Shown: positions 989-17,566 of the stretch, in pieces
Layout: the number at the start of each line of letters is the position of its first letter
How positions within the stretch are numbered: position 1 is the stretch's first letter
Virus record (IMG/VR): IMGVR_UViG_3300029071_000015
Length of the DNA: 17,566 bases
Reading direction: 5' to 3' (one strand)
Source of the DNA: a virus
Taxonomy: Duplodnaviria; Heunggongvirae; Uroviricota; Caudoviricetes
Made by a program: the position numbers and the translations under genes
Notes under the pieces: model-generated
The model's database searches: none
Told to the model about the DNA's origin: nothing
The model's input: only the letters and a program-made list of their open reading frames with translations

Positions 989-1297
989 ATGCGCCACGAT
1001 GACACCACCGTCGCGCAGGAAGCGGCGCATATAAAATGGAAACAGCACGGCGGCCCTTGTGAAATCCCCAATGGTCTGGCGCTTTGCGCAATTCACCATA
1101 AAGCCTTTGATAAAGGATCGATTGGCCTGGATGAAAATATGCGGGTACTGGTCTCGGATGCGGTAAACGGCGGAGGGATCGTTGAGAAACTATTCTGGGA
1201 TTTTGACGGGAAAACTATTGCGTTGCCGCAGGTGCGTAAAAATTACCCTTTTGAGGGGTTTGTGGAGTGGCATCGGAAAGAGGTTTTTAGGGGGTGA
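989..1297 (+). pseudogene. C-terminal HNH-nuclease-domain fragment (truncated remnant)
   Basis: In-frame Met at 989 immediately after the nanS stop; the translation contains an H-N-H-like pattern (AAHIKWKQHGGPCEIPNGLALCAIHHKAFD). The upstream part of ORF 815..1297 overlaps nanS in another frame and is probably not coding, so no N-terminal domain is present. Confidence 0.3.
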
Positions 1298-1304
1298 GGT
1301 TTGC

Positions 1305-1350
1305 TGTAAATAGACCCGTTTTAGTTCCATGCATTTTTTGAGCTCCCGGC
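1305..1350. repeat. Left arm of a 46-bp inverted repeat (45/46 match to the reverse complement of 2521..2566)
   Basis: tgtaaatagacccgttttagttccatgcattttttgagctcccggc; the reverse complement of 2521..2566 is identical except one base (gagCtcc vs gagAtcc). Confidence 0.85.
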
Positions 1351-1386
1351 ACTGCTAAATCCGCGCTGGGGCAAGTTGGGTTTAGG

Positions 1387-1656
1387 TTGCGCCAGAAGAT
1401 GGCAACTCATCATGGTATGCAGTTCGTTCCATGGCTGAGAGTCACACTGGAGCAAGAGTTTGTACATAACAATCCGGCCAAAGTTAATGATGATAATTTC
1501 AATAACGATATTGCCGGAACAAGAGGAAGTTGCCAGGCTGGCATCAGCGCGGCTACCACGCCGCACACACATATTTACGCCAGCATAAATTATGAGAAAG
1601 GTGATGGGGTGGAATCGCCGTGGACTGGAAACATTGGCTTTAATTATAGTTTCTAA
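1387..1656 (+). CDS. Possible C-terminal fragment of an outer-membrane beta-barrel protein (questionable)
   Basis: 89-aa ORF ending in ...WTGNIGFNYSF with a terminal Phe and alternating aromatic/hydrophobic residues, reminiscent of an OMP C-terminal beta-strand signature; no convincing RBS identified. Confidence 0.2.
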   Translation: MRQKMATHHGMQFVPWLRVTLEQEFVHNNPAKVNDDNFNNDIAGTRGSCQAGISAATTPHTHIYASINYEKGDGVESPWTGNIGFNYSF

Positions 1657-1762
1657 TATGGCATTTCATGTTTATATCAATTCCTATATATCCATTGCTT
1701 TTACAATCAAATGAGAACACCATTCATTATCTTAACAATAGAGATGAAGTCAGGAGACAGCC

Positions 1763-2356
1763 ATGTCATTGCTAGAGTCATTTGGGAAAGTATTAATTAT
1801 ATTGCTTGAAGCATTTTTAGGGAAACGCAAAGGTCAGGAGGAAGCACATATTAATTTTTTAAATGAATATACGAAAGAAAACTGCAACCATCGCTTGGTA
1901 GAATATTGGTTTTGTCAGCTCACAGGATGGCGTTACGCAAAGTACCAGGATATTGTTTTTATAATGATCTCATCCGACCCATCAAAAATATTGTATATGG
2001 CTAAAGGCATTAATTACATTGCCCGTACAGTGGAATTTATTGATAGTGGAGAATGTAAACTATCCGATAGACATAAAGAAACGAAAAAGAATACATTCCT
2101 CTTTTTGTTCATATCATTCATGATCATTTTCTTCATATTAATTGCCTGGATGGTATCCTCTGTAATATCTCTGATAACACATCATCATGATGTCATATTA
2201 ATGGCTATAAATATTTCATCGATAATAGCTGGTGCGATTTTTATCATGTGCTTTGCATTCTTCATTCATGCAATAACAATGGAGTTTTTTGCCTTTGAAA
2301 AGGCAGAGCATTTTGTAAAATCTTACAATGCAGAAAGAGCATCATCAGGTCGTTAA
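1763..2356 (+). CDS. Hypothetical membrane protein (soluble N-terminal ~110 aa followed by 2-3 predicted TM helices)
   Basis: 197-aa ORF with a strong RBS (caggagacagccATG); AT-rich codon usage; hydrophobic stretches FLFLFISFMIIFFILIAWMVSSVISLI and ILMAINISSIIAGAIFIMCFAFFIHAI; lies inside the inverted-repeat-bounded segment. Confidence 0.6.
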   Translation: MSLLESFGKVLIILLEAFLGKRKGQEEAHINFLNEYTKENCNHRLVEYWFCQLTGWRYAKYQDIVFIMISSDPSKILYMAKGINYIARTVEFIDSGECKLSDRHKETKKNTFLFLFISFMIIFFILIAWMVSSVISLITHHHDVILMAINISSIIAGAIFIMCFAFFIHAITMEFFAFEKAEHFVKSYNAERASSGR

Positions 2357-2520
2357 TGTTTGCCTCTATATTAATGCTACTGCTATCGCCACCTATTAAT
2401 ATCTGCCAATCAATAGGCAAAAAGGTGATACCAGTGGCATCAAAATTTCAGCCAAACAATCTTTGTAAGACGAAGATCTCTGATTTAACACTGCACTGAT
2501 TTTGGGCCAGGGTCAATTTG

Positions 2521-2566
2521 GCCGGGATCTCAAAAAATGCATGGAACTAAAACGGGTCTATTTACA
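2521..2566. repeat. Right arm of the 46-bp inverted repeat
   Basis: gccgggatctcaaaaaatgcatggaactaaaacgggtctatttaca; its last base abuts the first codon of the sid remnant. Confidence 0.85.
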
Positions 2567-2698
2567 ACCGGACTGTCAGCGGCAACACTCCCGCACATGG
2601 ATTATGAGGTGGCAGACACACCGGCACAGCGCAAGGTGTGGCAGGACAAAATAGACCAGCAGGCAGCAGAGCTTAAGGCCAGAGGACTGCTGTCATGA
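2567..2698 (+). pseudogene. sid: 3' remnant (last ~43 codons) of a P4 sid-like capsid-size-determination gene
   Basis: Translation TGLSAATLPHMDYEVADTPAQRKVWQDKIDQQAAELKARGLLS* matches my recollection of the P4 Sid C-terminus; the stop overlaps the next start (tcATGAtg), as expected in a sid-delta-psu late operon. Confidence 0.6.
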
Positions 2699-2806
2699 TG
2701 CGCTGCCATTTCTGTCGTCATTCTGCGCATACCCGCACCGGCAAGCACAGCACCGGCTGTTGTCCGAAAAGTTAAAGGCTGTTACAGCTCACCATTCAAC
2801 CATTAA
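2695..2806 (+). pseudogene. ogr/delta-like zinc-finger late activator gene with internal deletion and frameshift
   Basis: Starts MMRCHFCRHSAHTRT (CxxC zinc-finger start like Ogr/delta) and terminates early; its 3' end in another frame encodes KVKGCYSSPFNH*, matching the C-terminus KVQGCYSSPFRH* of the intact copy at 12450..12689. About 110 bp here versus 240 bp in the intact copy. Confidence 0.55.
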
Positions 2807-2820
2807 TCAGGAGACGGGGT

Positions 2821-3393
2821 GTGACTACAATGTCATTACAGCAGGCTTTTGAGGTCTGCCAGAATAATAAAGCGGCATAGCTTCAGCGCAAAAATGAACT
2901 AGCGGCAGCCGAACAGGAATATCTGCGGCTTCTGTCCGGGGAAGGCAGGAATGTCAACCGGCTGGACGAATTACGCAATATTATCGAAGTCAGAAAATGG
3001 CTGGTGAATCAGGCCGCCGGTCGTTATATTCGTTCGCATGAAGCCGTTCAGCACATCAGCATCTGCGACCGGCTGAATGATTTTATGCAGCAGCACGGCA
3101 CAGCACTGGCGGCCGCACTGGCACCGGAGCTGATGGGCTACAGTGAGCTGACGGCCGTTGCCCGAAACTGAGCCATACAGCGTGCCACAGATGCCCTGCG
3201 TGAAGCCCTCCTGTCCTGGCTTGCGAAGGGTGAAAAAATTAATTATTCCGCACAGGATAGCGACATTTTAACGGCTATCGGATTCAGGCCTGACGAGGCT
3301 TCGGTGGATGACAGCCGTGAAAAATTCACTCCTGCGCAGAACATAATTTTTTCCCGTAAAAGTGCAGAACTGGCATCACGTCAGTCTGTGTAA
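2821..3393 (+). pseudogene. psu: psu (polarity suppression protein) pseudogene with two in-frame stop codons
   Basis: A 573-nt frame (190 codons plus stop, GTG start with RBS aggagacgggGTG) alignable along its length to the intact Psu at 12705..13271 (roughly 60% identity by eye); TAG at 2878..2880 where the intact copy has Trp, and TGA near 3170 where a sense codon is expected. Confidence 0.75.
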
Positions 3394-3423
3394 AATTCCC
3401 CGAAAATCCGCCTGTTTTTACTG

Positions 3424-3458
3424 AAAAAAGCCATGCATCGATAAGGTGCATGGCTTTG
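3424..3458 (+). terminator. Putative intrinsic terminator downstream of psu (element 2 copy)
   Basis: Hairpin gccatgca-tcgataagg-tgcatggc followed by ttt; a homologous hairpin follows the intact psu at 13311..13346. Confidence 0.35.
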
Positions 3459-3557
3459 CATGCGTTTTCCCGCCTCATTTCCTGCAGATCACGCCGCACC
3501 CGGCGCGGCCTGAGCGTGTCAGTGCAACTGCATTAAAACCGCTCCGCAAAGCGGGCG

Positions 3558-3576
3558 GGCGAGGCGGGGAAAGCAC
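3558..3576. other. cos site (19-nt P2/P4-type cohesive-end sequence)
   Basis: ggcgaggcggggaaagcac is identical to the P2/P4 cohesive-end sequence as I recall it, and sits downstream of psu as in P4. Confidence 0.6.
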
Positions 3577-3603
3577 TGCGCGCTGCAAATTAATACTAGC
3601 TTA

Positions 3604-4167
3604 TTAAGCATCCGCTTCAAATCCTCCAAGATCGATTTGCTCTTCGATTTCAGGAGTCCAAAGTAATTCTTCTGGCGTAGCGTTTGACCAAAGCAATTTA
3701 CCATTCTCGATAACATACTTAACCGGTATTTTAGGATTGTTTATGTCTTTACCATCTCTTTCATGCCATTGTCTCTCCCATTTATCATAGAAGACTTCCA
3801 AATCACCGGGCATGAGTAAATAAACTGAACGGATAGTGATATTACTATAAATTGCGAACACCCATGGAACCTGCCTATATTTCGCAATTATTGTTGGATT
3901 CATATGATGGTGAGTTGAAAAACTTTTAGTTAACTCAACATTAACTGATTTTAATTCAAACTCAGTACCAGTGACATCTACTGCATCATTACCTTCTCGC
4001 CCAGGAAGAACTTTAAGACTGAGAAGTAAAAGAACTTGCAGGAGTTTCCCTCCGTTATCTTGGAATATATCATTGATTCCGTGCTTATTAGCTAACCGTT
4101 GATATTCTTCAACCTGAGGCCAAAGCGCAATTAAATTTGACCAATCTTGATGCAACTCAAATTTCAT
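3604..4167 (-). CDS. Type II restriction endonuclease, PvuII-like (PD-(D/E)xK)
   Basis: 187-aa ORF; segments [51 protein letters not shown] and DKWER match my recollection of R.PvuII, including the catalytic D...E-x-K; ATGA overlap with the upstream C gene; divergent from the methyltransferase. Confidence 0.75.
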
Positions 4168-4400
4168 ACCTGATTATTCTCCAACAGGGAACTGGGAGAG
4201 ACGCCAAGGGCTGAAGCAATTCGGTCGATATTATCAATGGAAATATTTCTTTCACATCGCTCTACTGATCCGATGTAAGTTCTATGCAAGCCTGCTAAGT
4301 CAGCCAAGGCTTCTTGAGACAACCCTTGTCTCTCCCTTAACTTTCTGATGTTATGGGCAAAAATCACTCTTGCTCTTGAGGGGTTTATCTTTCGTTCCAT
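4164..4400 (-). CDS. Controller (C) protein of restriction-modification system, XRE-family HTH
   Basis: 78-aa ORF with a helix-turn-helix region ([41 protein letters not shown]) resembling C.PvuII-type controller proteins; sits immediately upstream of and overlaps the endonuclease gene. Confidence 0.8.
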
Positions 4401-4427
4401 TCGCGAGACAATGCAGCCTTGATGACA

Positions 4428-4452
4428 ATAGATCTACAGACTATGAGTAGCA
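4428..4452. promoter_or_regulatory. Putative C-box operator in the divergent M/C-R intergenic region
   Basis: The 55-bp intergenic region contains dyad-symmetric elements (tagatcta; actatgagt, i.e. ACT-N3-AGT) just upstream of the C gene start, where C-protein operators normally lie. Confidence 0.4.
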
Positions 4453-4455
4453 GTT

Positions 4456-5430
4456 ATGACATTTGACAATAAAAAACCTGCGTACAAAACAGATTTGGGT
4501 GCAATGTACATTGCTGACTCGCTTGAAATGCTTAAATCGATGCCAGACAACAGCTTAAATTTAGTGATGACAAGCCCACCTTTCGCATTACAGCGTAAGA
4601 AAGAATATGGTAATCACGATCAAGAACAGTACATCGATTGGTTTTTAAAATTCGGCGAGCTGATTTTTAAAAAGCTAAAAGATGATGGTAGCTTTGTCGT
4701 CGATTTTGGTGGTGCTTACATGAAAGGAGTGCCTGTTAGAAGTGTCTACAACTTCCGGGTTTTGATCAGGATGATTGATGAGGTTGGGTTCCATCTGGCT
4801 GAGGACTTCTATTGGTTTAACCCTTCAAAACTACCAAGTCCTATTGAGTGGGTTAACAAAAGAAAGCTGCGTGTTAAAGATTCTGTTAACACAATTTGGT
4901 GGTTTAGCAAAACCGAATGGCCAAAGTCAGATATAACTAAAGTTCTTGTTCCCTATAGTGATAGGATGAAAAAACTTATTGAAGACCCTAATAAATATTA
5001 TTCCCCCAAAATGCGTCCATCAGGGCATGATATAAGCAGCAGCTTTGGCAAAGATAATGGCGGTGCTATACCTCCAAATTTATTGCAAATTCCCAACTCC
5101 GAATCTAACGGTGGATATTTATCGAGTTGTAAAAAAATTGGCGTTAAGGGGCATCCAGCACGATTCCCATCTAAATTGCCGGAGTTTTTCATTACAATGT
5201 TAACAGAGCCGGGTGATCTTGTTGTAGATATTTTTGGCGGTTCAAATACAACTGGAAGTGTTGCTGAACGATTAAAACGCAAATGGCTTTCATTTGAAAT
5301 ATTACCTGAATATGTAGCCGCATCTGTATTTAGATTTACAGATAAAAATACAAGTCAAGATATACTTCAAGAGATGTATGACACTATATTAAATGGAAAT
5401 ACTCTCGATTTATGCGCCAAAGAGAAATAA
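4456..5430 (+). CDS. DNA methyltransferase, beta-class amino-MTase (likely N4-cytosine, M.PvuII-like)
   Basis: 324-aa ORF; motif IV TSPPF near the N-terminus and motif I FGGSNTTG near the C-terminus (the circularly permuted order typical of beta-class N4C/N6A MTases); divergently arranged to the C-R genes. Confidence 0.8.
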   Translation: MTFDNKKPAYKTDLGAMYIADSLEMLKSMPDNSLNLVMTSPPFALQRKKEYGNHDQEQYIDWFLKFGELIFKKLKDDGSFVVDFGGAYMKGVPVRSVYNFRVLIRMIDEVGFHLAEDFYWFNPSKLPSPIEWVNKRKLRVKDSVNTIWWFSKTEWPKSDITKVLVPYSDRMKKLIEDPNKYYSPKMRPSGHDISSSFGKDNGGAIPPNLLQIPNSESNGGYLSSCKKIGVKGHPARFPSKLPEFFITMLTEPGDLVVDIFGGSNTTGSVAERLKRKWLSFEILPEYVAASVFRFTDKNTSQDILQEMYDTILNGNTLDLCAKEK

Positions 5431-5505: not shown

Positions 5506-6764
5506 TTAAGCATGAAGTTTTGCGTAGTCAAATGGACTAATAGGTTTAATCTTGTTTGCATCAAGATAATCAGCCCACCATTGAACCATTAATCGCCTTT
5601 CATCCAAATGTTCAGGGGTATGAATATAAGCTGCCCTAACACTATTACGCTCAGAATGACTCAACTGACGTTCTATCGCGTCATCACTCCATAGCCCCGA
5701 CTCCCCCAACGCACCACGTGCCATATTCCTAAAACCATGACCACAGACTTCCGTTTTTGTGTTATATCCCATCGCACGCAATGCATTGTTTACCGTATTT
5801 TCACTCATAACCTTAGCTGCGTCATGATCTCCCGGGAAAAGAAGCTCTTTATCACCACTAATCTGCTCAAGCTGTACTAACAACATCATCGCCTGCTGGC
5901 TAAGTGGAACTATATGCTCCTCTTTCATTTTCATGCCGCGATACGAGTAACGCACACCTTTAATTTCTTCACGTTTTGCCGGAATACGCCAAATAGCGTT
6001 ATCAAAATCAAATTCTTTCCAACGAGCAAAACGCAATTCGCTTGAACGAACAAAAGTTAGTAAAGAAAGCTCAACCGCAATTTTCGTCATCATACGACCA
6101 CGATATGCAGCAAGACGCGCCAAGAACTCAGGGAAACGATGTGAGGGTAGCGCCGGATAGTGCCGCATTTTAGATGTCGATAACGCTCCAGCCATATCAC
6201 TTGCAGGATTCGAGTCTATATAATCGTTCTGTACGGCATAGCGCATAATAGTAGTGACACGTTGCTGAAGACGCTGCGCTACATCATGCTTACCACTGGC
6301 ATCAACTTTTTTATCGGAGCTAGAAGATGACTAGTTTTAAGCTGTCGGATATCAGACGAGCCAATATAAGGGAAGATATAAAGCTCTAGATAGCGAAGAA
6401 CGCGCCCCCGATGATCCTCGCTCCAACGTTTGTTGCTGGCATGCCATTCACGGGTAATAGTTTCAAAATTATAAGTACCAGCATTCTCTGCTTGGGCCTC
6501 TTTTCGTACTGCTTTTGGATCTATGCCGTGTGCCAGCAACTTTTTCGCTTCATCCCTTCTCGTTCTAGCTTCAGCAAGCGTCACGGTCGGCCAAACACCA
6601 AAAGCAAGACGATCCTCTTTTTTGTCGGAGGGGCGTCTGTATTTCATACGCCAATATTTAGAGCCTTTGATAGAAACCTCAAGATACAAACCGCCACCAT
6701 CAGCCATTTTGTAGGTTTTGTCTTTTAGCTTTGCGGTCTCGACTTGTCTGGCGTTGAGCTTCAT
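5506..6764 (-). pseudogene. int: P4-family tyrosine integrase, frameshifted (split into 6279..6764 and 5506..6246 ORFs)
   Basis: The two ORFs together align along the intact integrase at 16301..17566 (roughly 85-90% identity); the nucleotide alignment shows a 1-bp deletion near 6270..6290 (ttttttatcgg versus ttttttaatcgg in the intact copy) that breaks the frame. Confidence 0.8.
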
Positions 6765-10545: not shown

Positions 10546-10747
10546 AGCGGCAATCTCCAATAAGTAGCGGTTATCGCCACCACAAGAGCTGCAAATCTCA
10601 TGGGTGGTAGCCCGGACAGGGTTTGCAGTACCGGCCTTATTGGAAACCGGCCAGCCCGAAGGCTGCCCCGCCCGGACCACCATTATCTGACAGGAGCCAC
10701 GGTGTAAGCACCACAGCCCGAAAAATAGGTGTGTCTGAGCAACGACA

Positions 10748-10770
10748 TAAAAAAACACGCTCGGCGCGTG
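10748..10770 (-). terminator. Putative intrinsic terminator (minus strand) downstream of the AlpA-like gene
   Basis: 6-bp stem acacgc/gcgtgt with 5-nt loop, followed on the minus strand by a run of 7-8 U. Confidence 0.35.
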
Positions 10771-10898
10771 TTGTGTCGCCAATAAGTTACACGGGCTGCA
10801 AATCCCGGCTGCCGATTTTGCGACAGCGGGAAAACTATACCTGGAAACGGCGAAAAGAAGCAAGCCAGAAAAAGGGGCTGTTTGCTGAACGGTCATCA

Positions 10899-12449: not shown

Positions 12450-12689
12450 ATGTTTCACTGCCCGTTCTGCAAAAAGACCTCGCATGTCCGAACCAGCCGG
12501 TATCTGTCGGAAAACGTCAAACAGCGTTATCACCAGTGTACCAATATCGAATGCTCGGCCACTTTCCGCACCATCGAGTCTGTTGACGGTGTGATACGTG
12601 CCGCACCGGAGAAAACCGACCCCGCCCCGGTGACGCCAGCGCCGCCGCGTAAAGTACAGGGCTGCTACAGCTCGCCGTTCCGGCATTAA
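12450..12689 (+). CDS. Ogr/Delta-family zinc-finger late transcription activator
   Basis: 79-aa ORF MFHCPFCKKTSHVRTSRY...YHQCTNIECSATF with the CxxC...CxxC arrangement of P2 Ogr / P4 delta; starts 3 nt after the sid-like stop. Confidence 0.85.
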   Translation: MFHCPFCKKTSHVRTSRYLSENVKQRYHQCTNIECSATFRTIESVDGVIRAAPEKTDPAPVTPAPPRKVQGCYSSPFRH

Positions 12690-12704
12690 TCAGGAGAGAG
12701 ACAC

Positions 12705-13271
12705 GTGACCACTGTGACATTGCAGCAGGCCTTTGAGGCCTGTCAGACGAACAAAAACACCTGGCTGAAACGTAAAGCCGAACTGGCCGACCTTGAACTT
12801 GAATACCGTGAACAGCTCCTTGCCGGTGACGAACAAATCCCGCGCAAAATGCAGGATTTGCGCGACAATATCGACGTGAAAAAATGGGAGATTAATCAGA
12901 CTGCCGGTCGCTATATCCGCTCACATGAGGAGGTGCAGCACATCAGCATTCGCAACCGGCTCAATGACTTTATGCAGCAGCACGGCGCGGAGCTGGCCGC
13001 CACGCTGGCACCTGAGCTGATGGGATATCACGAACAGCTTCCCGCAGTAAAACAGAGCGCCATGCAGCACTCGGTTGATTATCTGCGTGAAGCCCTGTCG
13101 GTGTGGCTGGCCGCCGGTGAAAAAATTAATTATTCCGTGCAGGACAGCGATATTTTAACGGCCATCGGATTCAGGCCTGATGCGGCTTCGCGGGATGATA
13201 GTCGCGAAAAATTCACCCCGGCACAGAACCTGATTTACACCCGCCGACGTGCAGAACTGGCCACACGGTAG
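12705..13271 (+). CDS. psu: Psu-like polarity suppression protein
   Basis: 188-aa ORF (GTG start with RBS caggagagagacacGTG) with conserved blocks AGRYIRSHE.VQHISI, RLNDFMQQHG, LAPELMGY, GEKINYS.QDSDILTAIGFRPD and DSREKFTPAQN matching my recollection of P4 Psu and the pseudogene copy at 2821..3393. Confidence 0.85.
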   Translation: MTTVTLQQAFEACQTNKNTWLKRKAELADLELEYREQLLAGDEQIPRKMQDLRDNIDVKKWEINQTAGRYIRSHEEVQHISIRNRLNDFMQQHGAELAATLAPELMGYHEQLPAVKQSAMQHSVDYLREALSVWLAAGEKINYSVQDSDILTAIGFRPDAASRDDSREKFTPAQNLIYTRRRAELATR

Positions 13272-13310
13272 CACGCGAAAAAATCCCCGAAAATTCCGCT
13301 ATTTTTCCTG

Positions 13311-13346
13311 AAAAAAGCCATGCATCCATAAGGTGCATGGTTTTGC
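13311..13346 (+). terminator. Putative intrinsic terminator after psu
   Basis: Hairpin gccatgca-tccataagg-tgcatgg followed by tttt. Confidence 0.4.
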
Positions 13347-13444
13347 ATGCAAATCCCCGTATTTTTTATCCCACGCAACACCAGTGCCGGTGCGGCCTGA
13401 GGCCGTTCATGCACCTGCATTAAAAGCGACCTCTTAAGCGGGCA

Positions 13445-13463
13445 GGCGTGGCGGGGAGAGCAT
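13445..13463. other. Variant cos-like site (16/19 match to the P2/P4 cohesive-end sequence)
   Basis: ggcgtggcggggagagcat versus canonical ggcgaggcggggaaagcac (present intact at 3558..3576); same position relative to psu and the upstream hairpin. Confidence 0.45.
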
Positions 13464-13588
13464 TGCGCGCTAAGCCGTGAGGATAATTATTATCCTACTC
13501 ATGACCTGTCTAATCGGAAAGAAGTGAAAATATTCATGTAACCCCTGAATATTTAACGTTAAACCGATCAAATTCTAGGGCGAAAATA

Positions 13589-13668: not shown

Positions 13669-14748
13669 ATGAATGTAGGGCATCTCAATTTTTTCAAGGT
13701 TAATAAGTGCGGTTTATACAAGGTAAATGATGACAATACCTATGGTTTAGAACTAAGCGAAACATTTGACCTCATACAGGATTGGGTAGGAACTAAACCT
13801 CTTGCACTCACCATACCATGGGACCCAAAAGAAAAACCCAATAGATCAAAGTGTTATTGTAAAGACATCTACAAAGATGAAAATACTGGTGATTTTTTAA
13901 TCATGTTATGGAAATCTGATACTGATAGTACTGGTTCTTTATTAGGAGCGAGTGAAGACGGTGAAATCGGAAGTTCATCAGTGGTTAAATATACTAATAG
14001 CTACAGAGGGAAAAAAGTCATCTGGGGTCGCCCATGCTTTTATTGGGTTATACCTGAACTTGAAACTATAGTTTCTATTAAATTCGATCATTCTGTTTGT
14101 GACTCTGAACTATTTCAAGATTATGTACACTCATCTATTACTAATAGAGTTAAACATAGCAAAAGAGTTAAAAATAAAACCGAGAAAGGTTATATAAGAT
14201 TATCTAATACTGATGACGAAGATTTATATAAATACATGTACAGATTTGATATGAAGCTCCGAAGCTTAGAAACCACTCATGCTGAGTTAGGTAAATTGAT
14301 ATCAAAAATAACACATATTGTTCGCAGAGAAACCATTATTATAAATCCAAATGACGCACGAGCTGATTGGTTAAAGACTTTTAGCACTCTCGTTCCATTT
14401 GTGTCCGGAAAGAAAAACACCAGAACAAGACAGATTGAAATAAAAGCAGAAGCGAAGCCATCCTTGAAAGAAGTTCAAGAAATAATTGAAAAACATTCTG
14501 CTGAGGATAGAGAAAAACGTCTTTGGGATAATGTGGGATTTGCGACGGACAAGGGCATAACATGGGTGGATAAATATAGAATGCGTGATATTCTCAATGT
14601 CCCTTCCGAAGACTATTCGACATATACCGCTGCATATATCTACGAACACATATCACACAAAAGAAAAGAATTCATTTCCCCTATATTAAAAGAGCTAAAA
14701 GCATTAAAATCTCAATCAAGAATAAAGAAAGCATCTGGAGAGGATTGA
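13669..14748 (+). CDS. Hypothetical protein (cargo gene A, 359 aa, soluble, Lys-rich)
   Basis: Long ORF with RBS aaggaaagagcATG; AT-rich codon usage contrasting with the satellite backbone; no catalytic motif I can recognise; stop directly abuts the next start (TGAATG). Confidence 0.7.
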   Translation: MNVGHLNFFKVNKCGLYKVNDDNTYGLELSETFDLIQDWVGTKPLALTIPWDPKEKPNRSKCYCKDIYKDENTGDFLIMLWKSDTDSTGSLLGASEDGEIGSSSVVKYTNSYRGKKVIWGRPCFYWVIPELETIVSIKFDHSVCDSELFQDYVHSSITNRVKHSKRVKNKTEKGYIRLSNTDDEDLYKYMYRFDMKLRSLETTHAELGKLISKITHIVRRETIIINPNDARADWLKTFSTLVPFVSGKKNTRTRQIEIKAEAKPSLKEVQEIIEKHSAEDREKRLWDNVGFATDKGITWVDKYRMRDILNVPSEDYSTYTAAYIYEHISHKRKEFISPILKELKALKSQSRIKKASGED

Positions 14749-15285
14749 ATGTTAAAAGCTATAGTAGGCCTCGTCAAATACACATGGATATACATAGCAA
14801 TATTCATTATATCGCTATTGGTCATTTTACCATCCGATATTTACTATGTGTATAACGATTTTGCTAACTATTGCACTCTTCTCGTATCAGTTTCTGGAAT
14901 GGTTTTTACTATTATGGGGATTTGGTTAGCGTTTCTTTATCCAAATGCTTTGCAGCGTATTGTTAACCCCAAAACTATAGAAACTGTTGATTTCACCGAA
15001 CAACTGGAAGATACAAAAAGGTTAGAAGCAATAGTTGGAAGTGTTCTAAAATCATCTTTCGTTATGATTACTTTACTTGTTGTATATTTAGTTAAACTAG
15101 TATTTTTCAAGAGTCATCTTTATTTAGAGAGTCAAGAAGTAATAAAAGACATATCTTTAGCATTAATTATTGCCATTTCATACATGCAGATTGAGGCAGT
15201 GATTAGTGTAATACTAGCTAATGTTATGTTTATCAATGATTTACATAATAAGCGAGAGCAAAGAGACATCGACGATCAAGTATGA
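14749..15285 (+). CDS. Hypothetical integral membrane protein (cargo gene B, 178 aa, ~4 TM helices)
   Basis: Four hydrophobic segments (WIYIAIFIISLLVIL, LLVSVSGMVFTIMGIWLAFLY, FVMITLLVVYLVKLVFF, LALIIAISYMQIEAVISVILANVMFI); translationally coupled to gene A. Confidence 0.7.
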   Translation: MLKAIVGLVKYTWIYIAIFIISLLVILPSDIYYVYNDFANYCTLLVSVSGMVFTIMGIWLAFLYPNALQRIVNPKTIETVDFTEQLEDTKRLEAIVGSVLKSSFVMITLLVVYLVKLVFFKSHLYLESQEVIKDISLALIIAISYMQIEAVISVILANVMFINDLHNKREQRDIDDQV

Positions 15286-15292
15286 GGAAAAA

Positions 15293-16246
15293 ATGAAAAA
15301 AAACATACGAGTTATACCTAAAAACATTCATAACAAGTTAAAAAGGCTTGGCAATGCAGTTGTTGCTGGCACTTCCATCGCATTTACAGAAGACCAATTA
15401 AAAAATGGTATACTAGAGCACCTTGGAATATACTTTGATAATGGTGTTAATGCTTATGAGACGTCGGTTATACCCGATCCATTGCAAGGCAAATATTCAT
15501 TCAAAAATGTTTTCGGTGAAGAAATCGTAAGAAAAGACCTTCCAAAAGAAACTCATTACACTGAAATTGAGTCACCTAACTGGGGTGATAGTTCTAACGG
15601 TACGCATACTGTTAGATTACCTCACGAGAAATACCCCAGAGATATTATCCCACCAAGACTCATAGCAATTGAAATTAATCACAAACAGTCTTCGGACAGT
15701 CATTTCATATTTAATTTCAGAGTAACTAGAATTTTAGAAAAAAAATCAACCAAGTTTCATGATGAATTATTATTCGACTTAAATCTTCTTCAAGAAAATA
15801 TTGGGAAGTGTGGGATTGAGAATGCTGATAAACCTATATCGACTTATGCTGACACACTCATAGTATCATGGGACATATTTCCACCAGGTAGTAAAGAGGA
15901 AGTTTTAGCAAGAATCTTTAGAGGGAAAAATATCACTACAGATAAGAAAAGTGTTGCTGAAAACAGATATGACTTCTTTATGAGCCTTGATCCTAAAAAA
16001 ATTGTCACAGGTAATAGTACGTTCAGTAATTATATTGGAGCTATGCTAGAGGACGACCTGGTTGTTTTTGAAAATATAGAATATGGTAATGCAATATATA
16101 TCCTCTATGATAACTGGGATGAAATCAGCAAGCTATCTCGAATCGATTTGTTATCAGGAAGAGCAGGCAATAATTTCGATAGAATAATTCATAGTGGTAA
16201 TTGGAAAGACGAGGTGCGAAAAAAAGTTACTAATGGAAGATTATGA
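15293..16246 (+). CDS. Hypothetical protein (cargo gene C, 317 aa, soluble)
   Basis: Start placed at MKKNIRV with RBS tatgaggaaaaaATG, 7 nt after the gene B stop; the longer listed ORF (from 15221) would overlap gene B; followed by a strong terminator. Confidence 0.65.
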   Translation: MKKNIRVIPKNIHNKLKRLGNAVVAGTSIAFTEDQLKNGILEHLGIYFDNGVNAYETSVIPDPLQGKYSFKNVFGEEIVRKDLPKETHYTEIESPNWGDSSNGTHTVRLPHEKYPRDIIPPRLIAIEINHKQSSDSHFIFNFRVTRILEKKSTKFHDELLFDLNLLQENIGKCGIENADKPISTYADTLIVSWDIFPPGSKEEVLARIFRGKNITTDKKSVAENRYDFFMSLDPKKIVTGNSTFSNYIGAMLEDDLVVFENIEYGNAIYILYDNWDEISKLSRIDLLSGRAGNNFDRIIHSGNWKDEVRKKVTNGRL

Positions 16247-16300: not shown

Positions 16301-17566
16301 CTATTGTTTTTTGTTTATTTTAGCAAAATCATAAGGTGTAACTGTTTTGCTTTCATTTGCTTTGAGGTAATCAGCCCACCATTGCACCATCAAGCGACGC
16401 TCATCCAAATGCTCAGAGGTATGAATATACGCAGCACGTACATTATTTCTTTCCGAATGGCTCAACTGCCGTTCAATCGCGTCATCACTCCATAATCCTG
16501 ACTCACCCATAGCACCACGTGCCATCGTTCTGAATCCATGCCCGCAAACTTCAGTTTTCGTGTCATAGCCCATCGCACGCAGGGCGCTATTTACCGTGTT
16601 TTCACTCATAACCTTAGTTGCGTCATGATCCCCAGGAAACAGCAGCTCTTTATCACCACTAATTTGCTTGAGCTGCTCTAATAAAACCATCGCCTGCCGA
16701 CTGAGAGGAACGATATGCTCCTCTTTCATCTTCATGCCACGGTATGAGTAACGCACGCCTTTAATTTCTTCTCGCTTTGCCGGTATGCGCCAAAGAGATT
16801 TATCGAAGTCGAATTCATCCCAACGCGCGAAACGTAACTCACTGGAACGCACAAAAGTTAGTAAGGAAAGCTCGACAGCGATCCGTGTCATTACACGGCC
16901 ACGATAAGCAGCAAGCCGAGCAAGAAACTCAGGGAACCGGCTTGAGGGTAAAGCGGGGTAATGTCGCGCTTTGGTTGTCGATAGCGCACCGGCCATATCA
17001 CTGGCTGGATTTGATTCGATGTAATCGTTCTGTACGGCATAACGCATGATCGCCGTGACGCGCTGTTGCAAGCGCTGAGCGACGTCATGCTTTCCACTGG
17101 CATCAACTTTTTTAATCGGGGCTAACAGGTGGCTGGTTTTGAGCTGGCGAATGTCGGACGAACCGATATGAGGAAAAATATAAAGCTCAAGATATCGAAG
17201 AACGCGCGATCGATGGTCTTCACTCCATCGCTTGTTACAGGCATGCCATTCACGAGCAATGTTTTCGAAAGTATATGCCCCTGAATTCTCGGCTTGAGCT
17301 TCTTTCTGTTCGGCTTTTGGGTCAATGCCCTGCACTAACAGCTTTTTAGCTTCATCGCGCTTTGCTCTTGCCTGAGCAAGAGTCACTGTAGGCCAAACAC
17401 CAAAAGCAAGGCGATCCTCTTTTTTGTCTGAGGGGCGTCTGTATTTCATGCGCCAGTATTTAGAACCCTTGGCCGACACTTCAAGATACAACCCCCCGCC
17501 ATCGGCCATTTTGTAGGTTTTGTCTTTCGGCTTTGCGGTCTCGACCTGTCTGGCGTTGAGCTTCAT
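16301..17566 (-). CDS. int: P4-family tyrosine integrase (site-specific recombinase), intact
   Basis: 421-aa ORF; catalytic HxxR (HGFRTMARG) and C-terminal Tyr region (VRAAYIHTSEH); start codon is the last three bases of the window, so the promoter, att site and presumed tRNA lie beyond the window. Confidence 0.9.
   Translation of the reverse strand: MKLNARQVETAKPKDKTYKMADGGGLYLEVSAKGSKYWRMKYRRPSDKKEDRLAFGVWPTVTLAQARAKRDEAKKLLVQGIDPKAEQKEAQAENSGAYTFENIAREWHACNKRWSEDHRSRVLRYLELYIFPHIGSSDIRQLKTSHLLAPIKKVDASGKHDVAQRLQQRVTAIMRYAVQNDYIESNPASDMAGALSTTKARHYPALPSSRFPEFLARLAAYRGRVMTRIAVELSLLTFVRSSELRFARWDEFDFDKSLWRIPAKREEIKGVRYSYRGMKMKEEHIVPLSRQAMVLLEQLKQISGDKELLFPGDHDATKVMSENTVNSALRAMGYDTKTEVCGHGFRTMARGAMGESGLWSDDAIERQLSHSERNNVRAAYIHTSEHLDERRLMVQWWADYLKANESKTVTPYDFAKINKKQ

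What the first reader, a model, noticed from the sequence alone, without database searches (positions are those of the whole stretch)
1763..2356. Orphan AT-rich membrane protein gene at the edge of the decayed satellite
Seen in sequence: a 197-aa ORF with a strong RBS, a hydrophilic N-terminal half and a strongly hydrophobic C-terminal half, in an AT-rich block within the inverted-repeat-bounded segment. Inference: small membrane proteins at satellite or prophage edges are often abortive-infection effectors, superinfection-exclusion proteins or toxin-like proteins. I recognise no family for it.
Basis: inference. Interest (0 to 1): 0.45.

Follow-up and report, generated by a model that had tools for sequence, protein, structure and literature searches.

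The report
Orphan membrane gene, likely phage exclusion
The 197-codon gene is real and intact, belongs to a rare uncharacterised family of small inner-membrane proteins that mobile elements keep in their anti-phage gene slots, and reached this spot as a scrap of a conjugative element caught between two insertion-sequence ends, so a phage-exclusion role is plausible but untested.

Summary
ORF 1763-2356(+) is intact, has an AGGAG ribosome-binding site, is AT-rich (33.5% GC against about 50% in the flanks), and has a soluble N-terminal half and a C-terminal transmembrane hairpin.

It is not cargo of the decayed P4-like satellite. Positions 1344-2463 are a 1.12-kb piece of an SPI-7/PAPI-1-type integrative conjugative element (ICE), about 92% identical to ICE copies. 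The piece holds the last 104 codons of an autotransporter, a 106-nt spacer, the ORF, and the operator-like palindrome that precedes the ICE's acaB-like gene. It lies between two outward-facing ends of an IS3-family insertion sequence, and the right end truncates the satellite's delta gene.

The protein matches no Pfam, NCBIfam, PADLOC, PHROG or PDB entry, and its N-terminal domain matches no known fold. About 45 clusters of relatives exist, all in Enterobacterales. They sit in three kinds of place:
- the variable cargo region upstream of the ICE's acaB-like gene, beside SoFic, a type I-B retron or HipBA;
- the gpA-gpQ defence hotspot of Yersinia P2-like phages, alone or with PARIS, Ppl or PDC-S31;
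- chromosomal islands, always paired with a Schlafen-like gene, often beside Avs2.

The layout resembles P22 SieA, but there is no detectable homology. My best reading is a stand-alone membrane phage-exclusion protein (confidence about 0.45, by association only).

The parts
1305..1350 (.). Left arm of the inverted repeat: a 46-nt terminal piece of an IS3-family insertion sequence, with its outer end (TGTAAATAG...) facing left.
   Evidence: One search found the repeat arms. Searches match the arm sequence to the ends of genes annotated as IS3-family transposase, and one search places the match at the 3' end of such a gene. No target-site duplication is present (GCT on the left, ACC on the right).
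1345..1656 (+). 3' remnant of an AIDA/pertactin-type autotransporter gene: the last 104 codons in frame, ending ...GFNYSF plus the stop codon. It is cut off by the IS end.
   Evidence: Searches show homology to the intact 770-aa autotransporter of the ICE. One search gives the in-frame translation and 87.5-88.2% nucleotide identity. Searches give the Pfam hits Pertactin and Autotransporter for the intact gene.
1657..1762 (+). 106-nt spacer upstream of the ORF, with AGGAG at 1752-1756. This is the presumed promoter and 5' untranslated region of the ORF.
   Evidence: It is 98.1% identical to the ICE copies, higher than the ORF (94.3%) or the autotransporter remnant (87.5%). A weak sigma-70-like site (1621-1650) lies just upstream of this spacer, inside the autotransporter remnant; such sites are no more frequent in the region than in shuffles.
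1763..2356 (+). The 197-aa ORF. It has an amphipathic or hydrophobic N-terminal helix, a cytoplasmic domain of about 85 aa, a transmembrane hairpin (about 111-139 and 144-173) and a conserved C-terminal tail (A181, F184, N189).
2357..2463 (+). ICE-derived DNA downstream of the ORF. ICE homology ends at 2463.
   Evidence: 84-90% identity. The 47-codon ORF at 2356-2499 is not conserved in the ICE copies.
2427..2443 (.). Palindrome TGATACCAGTGGCATCA. In the ICEs this motif lies about 105-120 nt upstream of the acaB-like (PFL_4669) gene wherever that gene directly follows, and it also flanks cargo genes.
2467..2566 (.). Right IS3-family end of about 100 nt (repeat arm 2521-2566), with its outer end facing right. 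It abuts the truncated P4 delta gene.
2567..3584 (+). Remnant of the decayed P4-like satellite: the 3' end of delta and a broken psu region. The satellite's own hotspot cargo (PvuII-like R-M, 3604-5430) and its split integrase (5506-6764) follow.
   Evidence: One search shows 98.5-99.3% identity to delta in many E. coli genomes. One search shows 72% identity to the intact copy at 12648-13471. Searches identify the R-M genes.

Best explanation
**What it is.** The ORF encodes a stand-alone inner-membrane protein of an uncharacterised, Enterobacterales-restricted family. Mobile elements carry this family as accessory cargo in their anti-phage slots.

**How I think it works.**
- It excludes phages at the cytoplasmic membrane.
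- The cytoplasmic domain of about 85 aa and the conserved C-terminal tail are held against the membrane by an N-terminal helix and a C-terminal transmembrane hairpin.
- I favour interference with an early, membrane-associated step of infection, meaning genome entry or its conduit, as P22 SieA does. That makes it a constitutively made exclusion protein rather than a suicide effector.

**How this copy got here.** It is not satellite cargo. It came on a 1.12-kb fragment of an SPI-7/PAPI-1-type ICE, now bounded by two IS3-family ends beside a decayed P4-like satellite in the island next to nanS. It kept its own upstream spacer and is intact.

**Shown versus inferred.** Shown: the gene, its origin, the family's distribution and neighbours, the predicted topology, and the lack of any known family or fold. 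Inferred: the anti-phage role and the mechanism.
For: **Origin**
- Positions 1344-2463 are about 92% identical to ICE copies in E. coli MS 16-3 and Salmonella.
- The same autotransporter-ORF-acaB order occurs in Citrobacter, Enterobacter and Klebsiella ICEs.
- The flanking arms are IS3-family ends.

**Cargo, not ICE backbone**
- Eleven of 5426 E. coli genomes carry this ICE backbone, but only one carries the ORF.
- The two I inspected hold a type I R-M system in that position instead.
- Other ICE variants carry SoFic (4e-43) directly upstream of the ORF, or a type I-B retron (6e-223 and 8e-97) upstream of the autotransporter.

**Where family members sit**
- In Yersinia P2-like prophages, and as gp21 of the isolated phage vB_YenM_42.18, the homologue lies between gpA and portal gpQ.
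- PMC9922126 is not the source; PMC9122126 describes that locus as the P2 old/tin defence hotspot.
- There it is the only substantial ORF (L018 checked by ORF listing; L019 and L020 by gene calls) or sits with PARIS, PDC-S31 or Ppl.
- A third subfamily lies beside Avs2 (E = 0) and a Schlafen-like gene.

**Selection and persistence**
- dN/dS is 0.27-0.30.
- The exact protein or a 99% variant occurs in at least 40 contigs with the same arrangement.

**Topology**
- Lys/Arg clusters flank the soluble domain in subfamilies a and c and in phage gp21, while the inter-helix loop has no Lys/Arg in any of the four proteins examined.

**SieA comparison**
- P22 SieA has the same layout: an N-terminal transmembrane helix followed by KRKR, a cytoplasmic segment, a transmembrane hairpin, and a conserved cytoplasmic tail.
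Against: - There is no functional data of any kind. The defence role rests on guilt by association.
- There is no sequence or profile similarity to SieA (hhalign probability 0.3%; no PF26849 hit) or to any PADLOC model.
- In its closest ICE relatives the gene is always 107 nt downstream of an autotransporter gene, which could point to a different role.
- PMC13586616 reports that only 15-32% of unknown genes in P2 hotspots are scored as antiviral.
- In the window the gene is a passenger on a rearranged fragment, and expression is not shown.
- The N-domain model has only moderate confidence (pLDDT 78.6).
Confidence: 0.45

Rival explanations
1. Abortive-infection effector. The cytoplasmic domain senses a phage cue, or a signal from a partner such as the Schlafen-like ATPase of subfamily b. 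The transmembrane hairpins then oligomerise and permeabilise or depolarise the inner membrane, killing the infected cell.
For: - It occupies the same defence-slot contexts as the best explanation.
- PMC9122126 notes that transmembrane proteins in known systems are generally thought to be suicide effectors.
- Subfamily b is invariably paired with a 676-690-aa SLFN_AlbA_2/HATPase_c_4 gene in all eight loci inspected, from at least four genera.
- The transmembrane helices are long and contain polar residues.
Against: - The gene stands alone in the window, in the ICEs and in three Yersinia prophage hotspots, with no conserved partner.
- In subfamily b the two genes are transcribed divergently, so they are not an operon.
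- There is no similarity to any known transmembrane effector model.
Confidence: 0.2
2. Accessory of the ICE or of the neighbouring autotransporter, unrelated to phages. Candidates are an entry-exclusion or regulatory membrane protein of the ICE, or a factor acting with the AIDA/pertactin-type autotransporter.
For: - Autotransporter and ORF are adjacent at a constant 107-nt spacing in E. coli, Salmonella, Citrobacter youngae, Enterobacter and Klebsiella ICEs.
- The ORF lies just upstream of the acaB-like regulator gene and its operator-like palindrome.
Against: - Only 1 of 11 E. coli ICEs with this backbone carries it.
- In Citrobacter farmeri the upstream gene is SoFic, not an autotransporter.
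- Subfamilies b and c occur with no ICE genes and no autotransporter.
- In the window the autotransporter is destroyed while the ORF is intact.
Confidence: 0.1
3. This copy is an inert passenger. Whatever the family does, the window's gene is a leftover on an IS-rearranged ICE scrap, and it is either not expressed or of no consequence to this host.
For: - It sits among decayed genes: a truncated autotransporter, a truncated HNH endonuclease, truncated delta/psu and a split integrase.
- No promoter signal rises above shuffled expectation.
- Truncated or frameshifted family variants exist elsewhere (P0005, P0008, P0010).
Against: - The ORF is intact although every neighbour to its left and right is broken.
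- The upstream spacer is the best-conserved part of the fragment, at 98.1%.
- The arrangement persists with no more than one amino-acid change across dozens of contigs whose right-hand neighbours differ.
Confidence: 0.15
4. Membrane toxin or addiction module that stabilises the element carrying it.
For: - It is AT-rich, small, membrane-embedded and borne on mobile elements.
- It sits near HipBA in some ICEs.
Against: - No conserved adjacent antitoxin ORF exists.
- At 197 aa with a conserved soluble domain, it is unlike type I membrane toxins (my own knowledge).
- It persists as a lone gene.
Confidence: 0.05

Closest known systems
P22 SieA (Pfam PF26849), the inner-membrane superinfection-exclusion protein of P22-like phages
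   Same: - Both are small, single-gene products carried by a prophage or other mobile element.
[quoted passage not shown]
- My own reading of its sequence gives the same order of parts: an N-terminal hydrophobic helix followed by Lys/Arg, a cytoplasmic segment, a transmembrane hairpin with a short loop, and a conserved cytoplasmic C-terminal tail.
- SieA alone is sufficient to block DNA entry.
   Different: - There is no detectable homology: hhalign probability 0.3% and no PF26849 hit for any of 39 members.
- The cytoplasmic domain is about 85 aa with its own conserved motif (LVEYxF..T....A.Y.EI..M....P), against about 50 aa in SieA.
- The tail motif differs: A-x2-F-x4-N against FxRYPxEAxxFNK.
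- Function is untested.
P2 old and tin, and other occupants of the P2 gpA-gpQ hotspot (PMC9122126)
   Same: Subfamily c and phage vB_YenM_42.18 gp21 occupy exactly this locus, next to portal gpQ.
   Different: - Old is an ATPase-TOPRIM nuclease.
- There is no sequence relation.
- The window's copy is not in a P2 or P4 hotspot at all.
Transmembrane effectors of multi-gene defence systems, such as the hydrolase-plus-TM, RT-nitrilase-plus-TM and TIR-plus-TM systems of P2/P4 hotspots, and RexB
   Same: They are small membrane proteins found in the same kinds of loci. Subfamily b has a constant Schlafen-like neighbour that could act as a sensor.
   Different: - No PADLOC model matches.
- The gene stands alone in most contexts.
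- Its soluble domain precedes the transmembrane hairpin and has no known fold.
Cargo hotspots of integrative conjugative elements that carry phage defence, such as SXT hotspot 5 (bioRxiv 10.1101/2020.12.16.423150)
   Same: In this ICE family the region upstream of the acaB-like gene holds interchangeable cargo in different hosts: type I R-M, SoFic, a type I-B retron, HipBA.
   Different: This is a different ICE family (SPI-7/PAPI-1/ICEclc type, not SXT). The slot has not been described as a defence hotspot in anything I read.

Membership tests
P22 SieA (PF26849) | Sequence match to the Pfam SieA model | tested here: not met
   No PF26849 hit for the window protein at E<=1 or for any of 39 family members at E<=0.01. 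SieA homologues do carry PF26849.
P22 SieA (PF26849) | Profile-profile similarity to a SieA alignment | tested here: not met
   hhalign of A3 against A7 gives probability 0.3%, E 0.19.
P22 SieA (PF26849) | Inner-membrane topology: an N-terminal TM helix, a TM hairpin and a cytoplasmic C-terminal tail | tested here: inconclusive
   Hydropathy and the positive-inside rule give this layout. It is clear for subfamily c and phage gp21, but the N-terminal helix is only borderline in the window protein. This is prediction only.
P22 SieA (PF26849) | Conserved C-terminal motif FxRYPxEAxxFNK | tested here: not met
   The tail is conserved but different: A181-x2-F184-x4-N189.
P22 SieA (PF26849) | Blocks phage DNA entry across the inner membrane | not testable with these tools
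   This needs infection and DNA-injection assays.
Known or candidate anti-phage defence proteins (PADLOC-DB v2.0.0) | Match to any defence HMM | tested here: not met
   The only hit was a compositional one in the transmembrane region, E 0.06.
Cargo of the P4-like satellite defence hotspot (psu-int) | Location between psu and the integrase of a P4-like element | tested here: not met
   The ORF lies to the left of the truncated delta/psu remnant (2567-3584). The psu-int interval holds the PvuII-like R-M system at 3604-5430.
Cargo of an SPI-7/PAPI-1/ICEclc-type ICE | Contiguous homology to an ICE cargo region flanked by backbone genes (DnaB, ParB, DUF2857, STY4528 ... acaB-like/PFL_4669, DUF3158, TraD) | tested here: met
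   Window 1344-2463 is about 92% identical to L001 and L002. The gene order was confirmed in five genera.
ICE backbone or entry-exclusion gene | Present in all or most elements that share the backbone | tested here: not met
   Eleven E. coli genomes share the acaB-like/DUF3158 backbone at 94% identity or more, but only one has the ORF. The two others I inspected hold a type I R-M system there.
Cargo of the P2 gpA-gpQ (old/tin) hotspot | Location between gpA and the portal gene gpQ of a P2-like phage | tested here: met
   This is met for the distant homologues (L008-L010, L018-L021, L038, L039). It is not met for the window's own copy.
   The best Pfam hit is E 0.21 and the best NCBIfam hit E 0.013. 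Both are far below the curated cut-offs and confined to the transmembrane region.
Winged-helix or other known DNA-binding fold (suggested by the helix-helix-helix-hairpin pattern) | Structural match of the N-terminal domain model | tested here: not met

The most novel reading that the evidence does not exclude
The ORF is a founding member of a previously unrecognised family of single-gene, inner-membrane anti-phage proteins with a new cytoplasmic fold. P2-like phages, SPI-7/PAPI-1-type ICEs and chromosomal defence islands all share the family. One subfamily works together with a Schlafen-like GHKL ATPase as a new two-gene system. As a by-product, the region upstream of the acaB-like gene in this ICE family would be a defence hotspot.
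Probability: 0.4. Interest if true: 0.55.

Novelty: new variant of a known kind. Interest (0 to 1): 0.36.

Why it matters
If the family does exclude phages, it adds a compact single-gene membrane determinant that existing defence finders miss. It would also link three kinds of mobile element (P2-like phages, ICEs and defence islands) through one shared cargo gene.

It would flag the cargo region upstream of the acaB-like gene of SPI-7/PAPI-1-type ICEs as a place to mine for new systems. It would also provide a second, unrelated protein with the SieA layout, useful for studying how phage genome entry or membrane integrity is policed.

If it does not exclude phages, this is one more orphan gene on a rearranged island, of little consequence.

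Tried and rejected
- **Family searches.** Pfam, NCBIfam, PADLOC and PHROG scans of the protein, and a Pfam scan of all 39 aligned members, gave only sub-threshold hits in the transmembrane region.
- **PDB sequences.** A search with the family profile found nothing.
- **SieA homology.** The shared layout suggested it, but profile-profile comparison rejected it.
- **Partner gene.** A translationally coupled 47-codon ORF at 2356-2499 crosses the ICE/IS junction and is interrupted or absent in the ICE copies. It is not a partner.
- **Transposon model.** A single transposon bounded by the inverted repeat does not fit. There is no target-site duplication, and both arms are the same IS end. How the fragment arose remains unexplained.
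- **Phage and plasmid records.** tblastn of the window protein found no hit in either collection. Only the Yersinia subfamily query found a phage record.
- **Upstream promoter.** An alignment with the C. farmeri ICE showed only patchy similarity, and the sigma-70 scan did not exceed shuffled expectation.
- **RNA elements.** Rfam found nothing near the ORF.
- **Literature.** A search by protein accession found no paper.

Full report
**1. The observation**

ORF 1763-2356(+) is present: 197 aa, with an ATG start. AGGAG lies at 1752-1756, six bases before the ATG.

The ORF is 33.5% GC. The flanks are 48% GC (1-1300) and 53.5% GC (2567-3600).

It is not a chance ORF:
- At this composition, 197 stop-free codons have a probability of 1.7e-7.
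- None of 2000 shuffles of 1657-2463 reached the observed stop-free run (202 codons against a maximum of 166).
- It has homologues under purifying selection.

There is a hydrophilic stretch of about 85 aa, then two long hydrophobic helices (about 111-139 and 144-173) joined by a short loop, THHHD. There is also a moderately hydrophobic N-terminal helix.

**2. What the surrounding DNA is**

The window is an E. coli island next to nanS, containing P4-like satellites. From left to right it holds:
- nanS (1-987);
- a 3' fragment of a phosphorothioate-dependent HNH endonuclease, ending at about 1301;
- the repeat-bounded segment;
- a truncated delta gene and a broken psu (2567-3584; 72% identical to the intact copy at 12648-13471);
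- a PvuII-like R-M system (3604-5430);
- a split P4-type integrase (5506-6764);
- a second, largely intact P4-like satellite, with a primase, C4 RNA, sid/delta/psu, AT-rich cargo and an integrase.

The repeat arms are ends of an IS3-family insertion sequence. Both are the same end, they face outwards, and there is no target-site duplication.

Between the arms, 1344-2463 is about 92% identical to the cargo region of an SPI-7/PAPI-1-type ICE in E. coli MS 16-3 and in Salmonella. The fragment contains:
- the last 104 codons of a 770-aa AIDA/pertactin-type autotransporter, in frame, 87.5-88% identical;
- a 106-nt spacer, 98.1% identical;
- the ORF, 94.3-94.6% identical, with dN/dS 0.27-0.30;
- 107 nt of downstream DNA.

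The downstream DNA includes one copy of the palindrome TGATGCCASTGGCATCA. In the ICEs this palindrome lies about 105-120 nt upstream of the acaB-like (PFL_4669) gene wherever that gene directly follows.

So the gene sits beside the decayed satellite but does not belong to it. It lies outside the psu-int hotspot.

The exact protein, or a 99% variant, recurs in dozens of contigs with the same local arrangement but different right-hand neighbours. The fragment is therefore fixed in a lineage.

**3. The protein family**

No Pfam, NCBIfam, PADLOC or PHROG model matches. No PDB sequence matches either.

Two searches of billions of proteins found very few relatives:
- The first found eight clusters.
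- A profile search of 1.84 billion cluster representatives found six.
- A broader profile search found 43 clusters.

All relatives are annotated as hypothetical, and every named source is in the Enterobacterales. My degenerate-pattern scans found it in only three GTDB species representatives and three IMG/VR contigs.

The layout is conserved across the family, together with a short list of residues:
- invariant: F50, T54, I64, P73, F184;
- nearly invariant: K23, F32, N40, L45, E47, A59, Y61, M68, W129, N189.

No invariant set of catalytic-type residues stands out.

Lys/Arg clusters flank the soluble domain on both sides in subfamilies a and c and in phage gp21. The loop between the hairpin helices has no Lys/Arg in any of the four proteins examined. 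By the positive-inside rule, the domain and the C-terminal tail are cytoplasmic. In the Yersinia subfamily and in phage gp21 the N-terminal helix is a clear transmembrane segment.

**4. Where the family lives**

*Subfamily a (197-198 aa; includes the window's gene).* It occupies the ICE cargo region just upstream of the acaB-like gene.
- Its closest members follow the autotransporter at a fixed 107 nt in five genera.
- The more divergent Citrobacter farmeri member (58% identity) follows a SoFic gene.
- Upstream cargo varies: HipBA, HTH genes, or a type I-B retron.
- Of 11 E. coli genomes with this ICE backbone, only one has the ORF. The two others I inspected carry a type I R-M system in that position.

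It is therefore cargo, in a region that exchanges defence genes.

*Subfamily b (196 aa).* It is always transcribed divergently, 170 nt apart, from a 676-690-aa SLFN_AlbA_2/HATPase_c_4 gene. The neighbours change: Avs2 (PADLOC E = 0), a 462-aa protein of unknown function, or none. I saw this in Salmonella, Citrobacter, Leclercia and Superficieibacter.

*Subfamily c (204 aa).* It occurs in Yersinia P2-like prophages. Gp21 of the isolated phage vB_YenM_42.18 is a further relative (hhalign 98%, E 2.5e-13).
- It lies between gpA and the portal gene gpQ.
- PMC9122126 describes this locus as the P2 old/tin defence hotspot.
- There it is the only substantial ORF, and AT-rich like the window copy, or it sits beside PARIS, PDC-S31 or a Ppl-like gene.
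- PMC13586616 reports that six of eight randomly chosen unknown P4 hotspot loci gave phage protection, and that 15-32% of unknown P2 hotspot proteins are predicted to be antiviral.

**5. Mechanism**

*Shown:* an intact, conserved, mobile-element-borne gene for a predicted inner-membrane protein with a cytoplasmic domain of unknown fold. It recurs in three independent kinds of defence-rich slot, and in several of them it has no partner.

*Inferred:* it excludes phages by acting at the cytoplasmic membrane.

[quoted passage not shown] Read from its sequence, it has the same order of parts. That includes a very short periplasmic loop, so the short loop in this protein does not argue against an entry block.

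I therefore favour a SieA-like block of an early step over a suicide pore, but only slightly. Homology to SieA was tested and rejected, so the protein is an analogue at most.

The rivals are:
- an abortive-infection membrane effector, perhaps driven by the Schlafen-like partner in subfamily b;
- an ICE or autotransporter accessory function;
- an inert passenger in this particular genome;
- an addiction toxin.

**6. Verdict**

Its functional guess gains circumstantial support from comparative context, but its rationale (satellite cargo) is wrong, because the gene is an IS-bounded ICE scrap.

The family is uncharacterised and lies outside every library searched. The kind of thing it most resembles is well known. 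Interest is moderate: it is a cheap, well-defined candidate for a phage-challenge experiment, not a surprise.

Noticed in passing
window 13669-16246: Three AT-rich genes lie in the psu-int hotspot of the intact P4-like satellite. The first two match the PADLOC candidate system PDC-M18 (M18A 1.5e-38, M18B 9.6e-16). The third (15293-16246) matches nothing.
   Followed up: partly
window 3604-5430: A PvuII-like type II R-M system with a controller HTH gene (4164-4400) occupies the hotspot of the decayed P4-like satellite. It appears intact although the satellite's psu, delta and integrase are broken.
   Followed up: partly
L001 6695-6831 and 10016-10032; L002 5338-5474 and 8664-8680; L004 6156-6172, 7741-7757, 8649-8725; L022 6878-6894; window 2427-2443: The 17-nt palindrome TGATGCCASTGGCATCA occurs in arrays spaced 60 nt apart, together with a second inverted motif (CCTATCAAT...ATTGATAGG). 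The arrays flank the cargo genes of the ICE, and a copy lies about 105-120 nt upstream of the acaB-like gene in every ICE checked where that gene directly follows. It looks like an operator or an insertion-prone repeat array. The protein that binds it is unknown.
   Followed up: partly
L006, L011-L017 (for example L011 5758-7830 and 8001-8591): The 196-aa subfamily is always paired divergently, with a 170-nt spacer, with a 676-690-aa SLFN_AlbA_2/HATPase_c_4 gene. This holds across Salmonella, Citrobacter, Leclercia and Superficieibacter while the other neighbours change (Avs2, a 462-aa unknown, none). It is a candidate two-gene module.
   Followed up: partly
window 1000-1301: A 3' fragment of a phosphorothioated-DNA-binding HNH restriction endonuclease lies directly after nanS and is cut off by the left IS end. 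It is another dead defence gene in this island.
   Followed up: no
window 1657-1762: The 106-nt spacer upstream of the ORF is 98.1% identical to the ICE copies. The ORF is 94.3% identical and the autotransporter remnant 87.5%. This suggests a constrained promoter or leader, but the sigma-70 scan found nothing inside the spacer itself.
   Followed up: partly
window 10600-10687(-) and 10750-10827(-): Rfam hits to C4 antisense RNA (85.9 bits) and isrK (72 bits) fall in the intact P4-like satellite, as expected for its immunity region.
   Followed up: no
L043 908-4304; L022 1-6391 and 11011-15183: The same ICE family carries a type I-B retron (ATPase-Toprim 6e-223, RT 8e-97) upstream of the autotransporter in one contig. 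In other E. coli it carries a type I R-M system with an AAA ATPase and a DEAD helicase in that region. In GN02350 a CBASS operon lies about 3 kb downstream of the acaB-like and DUF3158 genes, beyond an IS3-family insertion.
   Followed up: partly
L021 2771-6711 (Yersinia phage vB_YenM_42.18): This isolated Peduoviridae phage carries a Ppl-like SMC gene (PADLOC Ppl 3.7e-28) and, next to portal gpQ, gp21. Gp21 is a 240-aa distant member of the family.
   Followed up: yes
window 5506-6764 compared with 16301-17566: The integrase of the decayed satellite is split into two ORFs (5506-6246 and 6279-6764). It is 81% identical at the DNA level to the intact integrase at the right end of the window.
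   Followed up: no
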